Shown: positions 14,715 through 57,648 of the stretch, one piece after another | How the letters are laid out: every line of letters begins with the position of its first letter | Position numbering within the stretch: position 1 is the first letter of the stretch | From: Octopus sinensis | Lineage: Eukaryota | Assembly (NCBI RefSeq): GCF_006345805.1 | Contig: NC_042997.1 | Location: 174,654,001-174,718,000, forward strand | Direction: 5' to 3' | DNA: 64,000 nucleotides | Made by a program: the position numbers and the translations under genes | The notes under the pieces: model-generated | What the model was told of the DNA's origin: nothing | What the model saw: the letters and a program-made list of their open reading frames with translations, nothing else | Databases searched by the model: none

Positions 14715-15450
14715 TTTAAATTTTGACACAAGGCCAGCAATTTCAGGGGAGGGGGCGAGGTGATTACATCCACCCCAGTACTCAATTGGTACGTATTTTA
14801 TCGACCTCAAAAGTATGAAAGATAACGTCGGCCTTGGCGAGAACGTAAACACGGACGAAATACCTATTTCTTTTCTGCCCACAAGGGGCTACACAGAGGT
14901 GACAAACAAGGACAGACAAACGGATTAAGTCGATTACATCGATCACAGTGCGTAACTGGTACTTATTTAATCGACCCCGGATGAAAGCCAAAGTTGACCT
15001 CGGCAGAATTTGAACTCAGAACGTAGCGGCAGACGAAATACCTACTTCTTTACTACCCACAAGGGGCTAAACACAGAGAGGACAAACAAGGACAGACAAG
15101 CGGATTAAGTCGATTACATCGACCCCAGTGCGTAACTGGTACTTAATTTATCGAGCCCGAAAGGATGAAAGGCAAAGTCGACCTCGGCGGAATTTGAACC
15201 CAGAACGTAACGGCAGACGAAATACCTATTTCTATTTCTTTACTACCCACAAGGGGCTAAACATAGAGGGAACGAACAAGGATAGAAAAACGGATTAAGT
15301 CGATTACATCGACCCCAGAGTTCAACTGGTACTTAATTTATCGAACCCGAAAGGATGAAAGGCAAAGTCGACCTCGGCGGAATTTGTACTCACAACGTAA
15401 CGGCAGACGAAATACCGTTAAGCATTTCGCTAACGATCCTGCCAGCTCGT
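14715..15450 (-). mobile_element. Tandem array of four SINE-B units with a single tRNA head
   Basis: About 180-bp units joined at GACGAAATAC|CTA(T/C)TTC (14863, 15041, 15225). The head is present only at 15410-15450. Confidence 0.9.
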
Positions 15451-16003
15451 TACATTAAAATCAGTAAGAAGAATAAGAACAAGAATAAGGATAATAAGAA
15501 TAAGAATCTTATAAATTTTCCAGGTGTGAAGCGACATGGTGAGAAATCTGCTAAACAAGGTTGTGGGCAGAAGTGGAAAGTTACTCAACAAAAGCACTTC
15601 TTAACGTTCCCTCTGCACCGAAAGACATTTGCGTGGTACAAGTTTAACTACAGAGAAAACTCGTTAAAGGTATGTCACAGTTTCATGTGATCTGATACAG
15701 CTTCACCTGTACCGGAAGTACCTTTTGGAAAACAACATGTTATGAAAACCTTCTATATGCGCGCGGGTGTGTGTCTCCGTGTGTGTGCGTGCTTGTGTTT
15801 ATATGTATGTGTTTGTCTGCATATATCTCTCGCTGTCTGCCTTTTTCTATTCTTGTCTGTCTGGAGGGATGACTCGTTCTCTTCTTCTCTCACCACCTAT
15901 CTCCCTTCTCTCTGTCCTCCTTTCACTTTTTCTCTAACTATTGTATTTCTTCAAATTTTGTATATACAACTAATATATATAATACACACGCATAAATTAT
16001 ATA

Positions 16004-16039
<36 letters not shown>

Positions 16040-16135
16040 AGGTCCCCGATTGAGTCGGGGTTAACCACAGTAAATAAGGTACTCAATACATAGCAGAGTA
16101 AATTAATTTATTTTATAGAAGGAGCTTTTATAGAA

Positions 16136-16190
16136 GGAGCTTCTACAGGACTAGAACTGTTTCATTCAAAAGAAATCATCAGGAGCTTCC
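16136..16190 (-). ncRNA. Type I hammerhead ribozyme, antisense twin (stem I one nucleotide short)
   Basis: Minus: GGAAGCTC CTGATGA TTTCTTTTGAAT GAAA CAG TTCTAGTC CTG TA GAAGCTCC. Confidence 0.65.
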
Positions 16191-16235
16191 TGATGATTTC
16201 TTTTGAATGAAACAGTCTAGTCCTGTAGAAGCTCC
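16182..16235 (+). ncRNA. Type I hammerhead ribozyme
   Basis: Stem I GGAGCTTC/GAAGCTCC (8 bp); core CTGATGA; weak stem II (T)TTC-TTTT-GAA(T); GAAA; stem III CAG/CTG with loop TCTAGTC; GUA cleavage triplet (cut after 16227). Confidence 0.8.
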
Positions 16236-16495
16236 TTCTATAAAATAAATTTTTTTTAATATATATAATATGTGCATTTATATGCATGTCTGTTTATATA
16301 TGTGTGTGTGTGTATAAATGTATATACATGTATGTATATATATATAGAGAGAGACAGATATATATAGATATACGTATATATATATGTGTGTATATATATA
16401 TACATATGAATACACACACGTATATATGTATATATATATGTATATATGTATATATATATATTATATATATATATATATGTACATATATATATAAT

Positions 16496-26929: not shown

Positions 26930-27540
26930 ATGTGGATTTAGCGATCAATCATGGCGACTGGTTGGAAAAATGTAGTTGGACAGGAGAGCTAGGAAGAAGG
27001 GGAGATAATAAAGAACTGGTGATTCCAAAACGAAGGTGCACGTGCGTGTGTATGTGAGAATGTGTAAGGCTGTGCGTGTAGATAGAGGTTAGTGACTTTA
27101 ACGTGTGGATGTGTGCGTGTGTTAGTGTGTGCGTCTGTAATGTGTAGGTGTATGGATGATGATGTGTGGGTGTGCGGGTTATGGTGTGTGGGTGTACAGA
27201 TGATGGTGTGTGATATGGGTGCTGGGAAGTAGTCAGTGCTATAGCTTTATGAAGGATTCACTCAATAATGTTGACTGATTTGCGCTAGTAGATCGCCTGA
27301 TGAAGGAAAATAACGAAATGTTAGTGCTAAGTTCGTTCAGAGTTGCCTCTCTTAGGCACATCTCATTGACAAGAGCCAAGATGCTTGAAACATCGATGTC
27401 TGGGATTCCTTGTAGATGGTGACACTGAATAAACCGGTTGTTTTCCCGCCTTTTTACCATAAGCGAGGTATATTCTCCACGATAACTGCAGTGTATTTGC
27501 CTTGGACAGTTCAAATATGTCACAAATATATTTCAACTAA
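26930..27540 (-). pseudogene. Heavily decayed Penelope-like element 3' region (possible GIY-YIG remnant)
   Basis: ORF 27239..27523 IHCSYRGEY...RRENNRFIQ.H loosely follows the PLE I.C..C...YIG.T.R.L..RF.EH pattern. It is followed by a CA-rich 3' region. Confidence 0.4.
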
Positions 27541-54815: not shown

Positions 54816-55584
54816 TTACACATATATATATATATATGCATGTATATACATGTGTATGCATGTATCTATACATATATATATATGCAAGTATGTATATATA
54901 AATATACATATATAGGCATACATACATGCATACATACACAGAGGAGTAAATGTAAGGAAAAGCAAGTTAAACAGGTCGATATACAAATAATATTAAATGC
55001 TTTAAATACAAAAAAAGTATGTTGACATACAAGAAGGTCCGACTTACACAGGATCGAAATGATATCAAGAATTAAAGGGGTTGAAAAAGAGTAATAAAAA
55101 TCCCAAAAGCTGTTTATCCAAAATAATGGTTGTAAATTGATTTCATAGTCGGATGATACGATCCTCCGTCTTCAGGGAACAAATCTTACATTGACAGAAA
55201 TCTTACGTTGACAGAAAAGAGAAACCATTTTTATATAGATGGCCACTTATTGTAACCACCGAGTAGATTCTACTGTTATATTGTAGTATTTCAGACTCTG
55301 GAAACCAGACAAAACCGGCTGCACGGAGGACAGCCGCCAAGCACTGATGGCCAAGTCTATCGTAAGTGTCAGATTGTTCTATGTTTATTAACAATTCTCC
55401 CTATAATTATGCAACTTGTCATGGATAGGTGTACCGAGGACAGTTAATGCCTGTGCCTTCTCCCACTACCGATAGGCATCTGTTTCTTCGTGCTTTGGCC
55501 AAAATCTTGAGCTATGCAGGCTATATTGATATGAGCGGTAATTGTCGAGGATGATACTCACTTCTTATTACTGCCATACCTAAG

Positions 55585-55990
55585 CATTTTATCTGATCAC
55601 ATTCATCCTATGGTTGCGGAACGCTATCTTTCAGGAAGATAATGCTCCAATTCACACAGCTAAAGCTGTTCCTGAATGGCACGAGGAGCATTCAAGTGAA
55701 GTTGAGCATCTTATTTGGCCACCACAGTCCCCAGATCTCAATATTATTAAACATTCATGGTGCATTTTAGAAAAACAAGGAGTCGATATCCTCCACCATC
55801 ATCGCTACAAGAACTGGAGACTTTTTTAGCTGAAGAATGGACAAATATTCCTTTGGGAACAATTCAAACTTTGTACGAATCCATACCTTGTAGAATTCAA
55901 GTTGTAATTACTGCTAAATGCGCTCCTACACCATATTAAAATTAATTTATTTGAAATTCAAAGGTGTTTCCATTATTTTGTCCAACCCTG
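55585..55990 (+). pseudogene. Tc1-family transposase 3' relic with right end
   Basis: FQEDNAPIH...WPPQSPDLNII.H.W (ORF 55614..55829), then LQELE..L.EEW..IP...IQ.LYESIP.RI..VI.AK...TPY* (55757..55939). Ends TTATTTTGTCCAACCCTG. Confidence 0.9.
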
Positions 55991-57414: not shown

Positions 57415-57492
<78 letters not shown>

Positions 57493-57494
57493 AC

Positions 57495-57606
57495 AAACTG
57501 GGACAAGAACGTGAAACATTTAGAAGACGACACAAAAAACACCGACGGGACTTTCGAAGCCCTCAGTCATCAGTCAAGAACCGGATCATCTTCGCAATTT
57601 CGGCTG

Positions 57607-57610
<4 letters not shown>
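57495..57610. mobile_element. Partial copy of the 9930-10632 element
   Basis: TGGGACAAGAACG...CAGTCAAGAACCGGATCAT...GCAATTTCGG shared; flanked by (TA)n. Confidence 0.8.

Positions 57611-57648
<38 letters not shown>

What the first reader, a model, noticed from the sequence alone, without database searches (positions are those of the whole stretch)
16040..16252. Protein-free palindromic twin hammerhead cassette with an intact catalytic core
Seen: a complete type I hammerhead at 16182-16235 (8-bp stem I, CUGAUGA, GAAA, 3-bp stem III with a CUAG-containing loop, GUA site). It overlaps a mirror copy on the other strand, and the axis of symmetry is the AGCT inside the shared 5' strand of stem I. 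Each cassette is followed by AATAAA, and the longer arm ends in a CCCCGA-TTGAG-TCGGGG hairpin. Known: PLE pseudo-LTRs carry small type I hammerheads with palindromic loop III and often occur in inverted orientation. Inferred: transcription from either side produces a ribozyme that is pre-paired with its own antisense in a hairpin of about 65 bp. The cassette could therefore act as a fold-dependent switch between self-cleavage and ADAR/Dicer substrate, or be a small non-autonomous ribozyme retroelement.
Basis: partly seen in the sequence, partly recalled or inferred. Interest (0 to 1): 0.75.

Follow-up and report, generated by a model that had tools for sequence, protein, structure and literature searches.

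The report
Penelope ribozyme stub, inserted back-to-back
This 210-base mirror-image sequence is one of many hundred stubs of an ordinary Penelope-type jumping gene in this genome, likely rebuilt afresh at each landing from the start of the element's RNA rather than being a self-spreading ribozyme switch.

Summary
The two hammerhead motifs and the 59-bp inverted repeat are real. They are the ribozyme-bearing end (pLTR) of a Penelope-like retrotransposon, which has an RT plus C-terminal GIY-YIG ORF elsewhere in the genome. A 25-mer of the family has 1598 exact matches. In 100 consecutive copies, 65 are short palindromes with 41 different junctions, and 98 sit in a (TA)n or (CA)n microsatellite. 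Longer copies show the same divergent arms from 81 bp to 12.5 kb apart. Junctions are not random, though: 45 of 100 tail arms start within 8 nt of one base that lies 29 nt after a conserved TATA-like box. That base is likely the RNA's 5' end. One arm ends at AATAAA, the other about 70 nt further on, which fits two primings per insertion. The 8-bp stem I and the terminal hairpin are features of this junction and copy, and the mirror hammerhead's stem I is damaged. In the full palindrome the ribozyme fold has about zero probability. The architecture is published, and this scan reported such stubs in other genomes. Cleavage and expression are untested.

The parts
16037..16184 (-). Tail arm: 5'-truncated pLTR (element positions about +5 to +137; +1 = A of AGCTTCC), running through the hammerhead, AATAAA and the tail to CCTACA at the (TA)n target
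   Evidence: row L001
16037..16106 (-). Tail, about 70 nt; in tandem copies it runs on into the 5' region of the ORF (first Met at about +184)
16045..16061 (-). Approximate span of the 6-bp terminal hairpin, private to this copy
   Evidence: 1 of 100 copies
16111..16140 (.). 15-bp tandem duplication, private to this copy
   Evidence: D15; 1 of 100
16136..16190 (-). Mirror hammerhead: core intact, 8-nt loop III of family type, stem I damaged by the junction; predicted cut between 16144 and 16143
16185..16187 (.). Axis: 3-nt loop GCT between the arms, one base short of the perfect AAGCTT axis; lies at the inferred RNA 5' end
16184..16249 (+). Tail-less arm: pLTR +1 to about +67, ending at AATAAA (16244-16249)
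   Evidence: 62 of 65 inverted arms end at +62..+69
16182..16235 (+). Type I hammerhead motif with complete core; native stem I 16184-16189/16228-16233 extended by two junction-derived pairs; U10.1-U11.1; 3-bp stem II; loop III with CUAG; predicted cut after 16227
15997..16036 (.). (TA)n target, left flank
16250..16270 (.). T run and (TA)n, right flank; a target-site duplication cannot be read in the microsatellite

Best explanation
The cassette is a protein-free stub of a Penelope-like retrotransposon, two copies of its hammerhead-bearing end joined head to head in a TA microsatellite, and it was likely built at this site by two short reverse-transcription events that ran off the 5' end of the element's RNA. 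Shown: family membership, linkage to an RT/GIY-YIG ORF, two fixed outer ends (about +67 and about +137), and inner ends piled up at +1. Inferred: RNA starts at +1 from a TATA-like box at -29 in the upstream partial copy. The enzyme cuts both target strands and primes at the two sites. The two cDNA 3' ends meet, most often through the self-complementary AGCT, and are filled in. The product lacks promoter and ORF, so it would be a dead end; in any read-through transcript the 59-bp duplex would mask the ribozyme.
For: 1598 exact tail matches, control 0. First 100 listed copies: 65 short palindromes, 19 running into the 3'UTR beyond -25, 16 without a called inversion; by eye 2 of the 16 are palindromes with an internal deletion and 2 reach -9 and -25. 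98 of 100 end in a microsatellite. Native-upstream copies form divergent pairs 81 bp to 12.5 kb apart; 5 of 20 fetched stretches hold RT and/or GIY-YIG ORF pieces, whose nearest Atlas clusters score 0.95-0.98 and carry HTH_animal, some also RVT_1 and GIY-YIG. The tail runs into the ORF at 55 exact matches. 41 junction types in 65 palindromes. Both arms carry the same loop II variant in 26 of 27 and in 15 of 15 copies, over five loop II variants. The tail is on exactly one arm in 15 of 15 perfect-axis loci; 413 tail-linked matches against 452 perfect-axis loci. 45 of 100 tail arms start at +1..+8 and 2 of 100 at -48..-1; 7 of 12 uninverted stubs also start at +2..+8. The box lies 29 nt before +1 in 18 of 19 copies, across 12 box-plus-spacer sequences. 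The tail-less arm reaches further 5' than the tail arm in 16 of 65 and the reverse holds in 9 of 65; in L102, L103, L105 and L106 the ORF is on an arm without a detected tail. Both points favour two primings. PMC11167929 shows two-strand cutting and two initiation sites in vitro for a Poseidon element.
Against: No RNA 5' end was seen; the start site is inferred from DNA. A test for a cap-derived extra G failed: G 4, T 4, C 3 of 11. AGCT is itself a palindrome, so some clustering needs no RNA end, and other junctions sit at other local palindromes (stem II in 5 of 65). BLAST over-extends arms through microhomology. The 123:102 balance of the two one-base-short axes (p=0.18) does not prove two primings, because symmetric loss of one base at the hairpin tip, or a sequencing error there, gives the same ratio. 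Unequal arm ends could be later deletions. A few of the 100 copies are local duplicates. The ORF's Pfam RT match is below the cut-off (E 0.0017).
Confidence: 0.8

Rival explanations
1. Same Penelope stub, but made by one priming: the tail-primed cDNA runs off at +1, folds back on AGCT, copies itself to about +67 and anneals to the TA target. This is close to the self-priming reading of Arkhipova et al. 2013.
For: Arms share subfamily variants; one tail per insertion; junctions sit at small palindromes; PMC3846280 reads junction palindromes as self-priming.
Against: A folded-back arm cannot hold sequence that the first arm lacks, yet the tail-less arm is longer at its 5' end in 16 of 65 palindromes and carries the ORF in four long copies.
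Confidence: 0.12
2. A distinct non-autonomous palindromic ribozyme element that is copied as one unit by the Penelope enzyme.
For: At least 452 loci share one exact axis and are nearly identical; ORF-less hammerhead retrozymes derived from PLEs are published (bioRxiv 10.64898/2026.07.22.740005).
Against: 41 junction types in 65 copies; the same axis recurs in several subfamilies; tail on either arm; no TATA-like box in register in the cassette; arm length runs continuously up to ORF-bearing copies; its RNA would be a closed duplex.
Confidence: 0.05
3. A host-selected RNA switch between self-cleavage and ADAR/Dicer processing at this locus.
For: The 59-bp hairpin is real (-96 kcal/mol) and would be a double-stranded substrate if transcribed.
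Against: One of many hundred similar young copies; this copy carries private damage; the ribozyme state is not populated in the palindrome; no host gene was recognised among 88 longer ORFs of the window (only a DDE_3 fragment), though short exons would be missed.
Confidence: 0.03

Closest known systems
Insertion architecture of endonuclease-positive Penelope-like elements (Craig et al. 2021, PMC8557442, Fig. 2 legend and text; Arkhipova et al. 2013, PMC3846280, Pen2a_Av; passages seen)
   Same: Partial tandems forming pLTRs, an inverted 5'-truncated copy, palindromes at the inverted junction, a tail at one end only, (TA)n targets, a putative TATA box in the pLTR.
   Different: Here most copies are reduced to the two ends with no ORF; the tail is about 70 nt rather than 30-40; the inner ends pile up at one base 29 nt after the box.
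PLE hammerheads (Cervera and de la Pena 2014, PMC4209133; parts 1-2 of 4 read)
   Same: Type I motif in the pLTR, palindromic loop III suited to dimers; pairs on opposite strands 100-700 bp apart were already noted in Schistosoma.
   Different: U10.1-U11.1 instead of the usual G-C, only 3 further pairs in stem II, a 3-4 bp stem III with an 8-nt loop; the two motifs abut.
Poseidon element PAc in vitro (Frangieh et al. 2024, PMC11167929; parts 1-2 of 4 read)
   Same: Two fixed 3' ends bounding the tail, AT-rich targets, both strands cut and extended, uncut RNA used as template.
   Different: Other clade; in PAc the ORF starts inside the hammerhead and initiation is at ORF +111-118, whereas here the first Met lies about 47 nt beyond the tail end.
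Metazoan non-LTR retrozymes (bioRxiv 10.64898/2026.07.22.740005, part 1 of 5 and passages; PMC7229834, search listing only)
   Same: Short, non-coding, type I hammerhead, PLE-related.
   Different: Retrozymes are head-to-tail tandem units; this is head-to-head and is a piece of the autonomous element itself.

Membership tests
Endonuclease-positive PLE insertion | Same ends linked to an ORF with RT and GIY-YIG endonuclease | tested here: met
   Pfam RT match weak; none in the window itself
Endonuclease-positive PLE insertion | Partial tandem: 3'UTR, pLTR, tail, ORF | tested here: met
   for example L189, L197, L202, L209
Endonuclease-positive PLE insertion | Inverted 5'-truncated copy with variable inversion point | tested here: met
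Endonuclease-positive PLE insertion | Tail at one end only | tested here: met
   15 of 15; length about 70 nt, longer than the published 30-40
Endonuclease-positive PLE insertion | Target-site duplication | tested here: inconclusive
   flanks are (TA)n
Neptune or Nematis clade | C-terminal GIY-YIG with cysteine-rich linker upstream (PMC8557442) | tested here: met
   read by eye: CxC-x5-C-x5-C before VYTC and YIG; that this spacing is Neptune-like is recalled
Neptune or Nematis clade | Placement in an RT phylogeny | not tested
   no reference PLE set fetched
Type I hammerhead | CUGANGA, GAAA, NUH core with three stems | tested here: met
   subfamily variation in 66 arms is confined to N7 and loop II
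Type I hammerhead | Watson-Crick 10.1-11.1 pair | tested here: not met
   U-U in 65 of 66 arms; a tolerated natural variant per PMC3088659; no Rfam hammerhead match
Type I hammerhead | Self-cleavage | not testable with these tools
   needs an in vitro assay
Non-LTR retrozyme | Head-to-tail tandem units each with a hammerhead | tested here: not met
Non-LTR retrozyme | Circular RNA | not testable with these tools
   only contigs were offered
Independent non-autonomous element | One inherited junction and fixed polarity | tested here: not met

The most novel reading that the evidence does not exclude
The stubs are a genome-wide read-out of the Penelope integration step. The RNA begins exactly at the hammerhead's stem I, 29 nt after a TATA box, so the ribozyme sits at the very start of the transcript. 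Each insertion is primed twice, once at each of two internal sites near that 5' end, which would explain inverted pLTRs and one-sided tails without an antisense template.
Probability: 0.55. Interest if true: 0.45.

Novelty: new member of a known kind. Interest (0 to 1): 0.26.

Why it matters
As a locus it is ordinary. As a family it gives several hundred young, minimal insertions with sharp ends, which make specific predictions about how Penelope-like elements copy themselves (RNA start at +1; priming at about +67 and +137). They also add many perfect 60-70 bp hairpins to the genome, which could feed RNA editing or small-RNA pathways if transcribed. Searches of held papers found the architecture in print but listed no paper on this family; subscription papers, Repbase/Dfam and unread supplements may describe it.

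Tried and rejected
Rfam: the whole-window scan showed no hammerhead among the 150 listed of 273 matches, and there was none among 102 matches for the cassette. Cap-derived extra G at the junction: not supported. Using the 123:102 ratio as proof of two primings: rejected, since symmetric one-base loss explains it. Such losses are rare at other short runs (about 2 clear run shortenings among 4 variant arms of 83), so the effect is specific to the hairpin tip, but biology and sequencing error cannot be told apart. PDB sequence search of the ORF: nothing at E<0.3. First ten extended loci: no PLE ORF in the part of the output shown, which was cut. Expression: no RNA holder listed; no evidence either way. 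Contigs of four runs laid on the cassette show the family in three coded organisms and the perfect-axis form in 17, 3, 0 and 1 contigs, so palindromes are not only an artefact of this assembly; they do not settle whether this copy's one-base-short axis is real. The TATA count (125 of 135) includes repeated loci and was replaced. The paper by Lunse et al. on PLE hammerhead dimers was not held and is not used.

Full report
Observation. The plus strand has a type I hammerhead motif at 16182-16235 with a predicted cut after 16227. It lies in an inverted repeat of 16126-16184 and 16188-16245 (58 of 59 matched) around a 3-nt loop. The mirror motif on the minus strand has the same core, but its stem I is broken by the junction. 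Both flanks are (TA)n. No Rfam hammerhead model is among the matches, so the call rests on the motif and on family variation: in 66 tail arms the common variants fall only at core position N7 and in loop II, while U10.1 and U11.1 are kept in 65 of 65 and 65 of 66. PMC3088659 (passages) reports natural hammerheads with this U-U. Cleavage is untested.

Family. A tail 25-mer has 1598 exact matches. I fetched the first 100 listed places, all on contig C1, and mapped their ends on a real copy, with +1 at the A of AGCTTCC. The script called 65 short palindromes, 19 copies that continue into upstream sequence beyond -25, and 16 without inversion. By eye, two of the 16 are palindromes with an internal deletion and two reach -9 and -25, leaving 12. 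A few of the 100 are local duplicates. 98 of 100 tails end in a microsatellite.

Link to an autonomous element. Copies with native upstream sequence (121 exact matches) often form divergent pairs 81 bp to 12.5 kb apart. Five of 20 stretches fetched around such pairs (L102, L103, L105, L106, L120) hold pieces of an ORF with a YRDDG motif and/or a cysteine-rich linker and C-terminal YIG motif. Pfam gives only a weak RT match. The nearest Atlas clusters (0.95-0.98) carry HTH_animal, and some also RVT_1 and GIY-YIG, on 12-90% of members. The 3'UTR of this ORF ends in the same hammerhead and AATAAA, and the tail continues into the ORF's 5' region in 55 exact matches, many as 3'UTR-hammerhead-tail-ORF tandems. 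This is the arrangement described in PMC8557442 and PMC3846280 (passages). The window itself holds no such ORF.

Built anew or copied whole. The 65 palindromes show 41 junction types. Genome-wide, tail-linked counts are 413 for a perfect AAGCTT axis, 123 for a one-base-short axis with complete stem I on the tail arm, and 102 for the window's type; a few loci with two tails count twice, and the window copy itself does not match because of its duplication. The two arms of a copy share their loop II variant in 26 of 27 and in 15 of 15 cases, across five variants, and four of these also occur in 3'UTR-linked copies. Repeated formation from subfamily RNAs fits this; one palindromic master does not.

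Why the axis sits there. 45 of 100 tail arms begin at +1..+8 and 2 of 100 at -48..-1. Seven of 12 uninverted stubs begin at +2..+8. A TATAAATG-type box starts 29 nt before +1 in 18 of 19 copies, with 12 different box-plus-spacer sequences. I infer that +1 is the transcription start and that cDNAs run off there. Against this: no RNA data, no excess of a cap-derived G, and AGCT is a palindrome that would attract junctions anyway.

One priming or two. Outer ends are fixed: 62 of 65 inverted arms end at +62..+69 and tails end at about +137. The tail is on exactly one arm in 15 of 15 perfect-axis loci. The tail-less arm reaches further 5' in 16 of 65 copies and the tail arm in 9 of 65, and the ORF lies on an arm without a detected tail in four long copies. 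Fold-back of a single cDNA cannot give that without later deletion. Two primings match the two-strand, two-site activity shown in vitro for PAc (PMC11167929). This step is inferred.

RNA consequences. In the full cassette the stem I pairs have probability 0.000, against 0.97-1.00 for the right arm alone; even then the lowest-energy fold is not the exact hammerhead fold (-15.8 against -13.0 kcal/mol). The cassette lacks the box in register, so it would be transcribed only by read-through, as a closed duplex. The 8-bp stem I is a product of the junction; the terminal hairpin, the 15-bp duplication and the short loop III are private to this copy. A regulated switch is not supported.

Verdict. A real but ordinary Penelope stub and a new member of a known kind. 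Its value is collective, as a map of RNA start and priming sites. The scan has noted such stubs before: 227 notes in at least 33 genomes hold my search words. These are unchecked notes and are not counted as support. My reading was recorded before I opened them. Supplements of the cited papers were not read and may bear on whether this family is already described.

Noticed in passing
window 57430-57640, minus strand: Another piece of about 150 bp between (TA)n runs with CTGATGA and CGAAAGTC, related to a piece upstream in L064; probably a stub of another Penelope-like family with a hammerhead-like motif.
   Followed up: partly
window 27297-27330, plus strand: CTGATGA followed by CGAAA; stems not evident.
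   Followed up: no
window 14760-15420: Three to four tandem copies of a 180-190 bp SINE-like repeat.
   Followed up: no
window 55584-55826, plus strand: DDE_3 transposase fragment, E 1.7e-10.
   Followed up: no
G000:C9:87.42 Mb (L204-L208) and G000:C16:42.87 Mb: Arrays of about 420-bp and about 247-bp units of this family (the C9 units hold hammerhead, tail and ORF start) that switch strand in the middle; they look like retrozyme-type tandems arising from the element.
   Followed up: no
L045, L129; G000:C4:57703238-57703395: A few palindromes carry tail sequence on both arms.
   Followed up: no
L033, L135, L179: A loop III variant with a 6-bp palindrome (ACTAGT) occurs on one arm only in L033, so the arms differ.
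   Followed up: no
L002, L007-L010: Copies on C18 and a small contig share flanks: segmental duplicates with a stub of the second arm.
   Followed up: no
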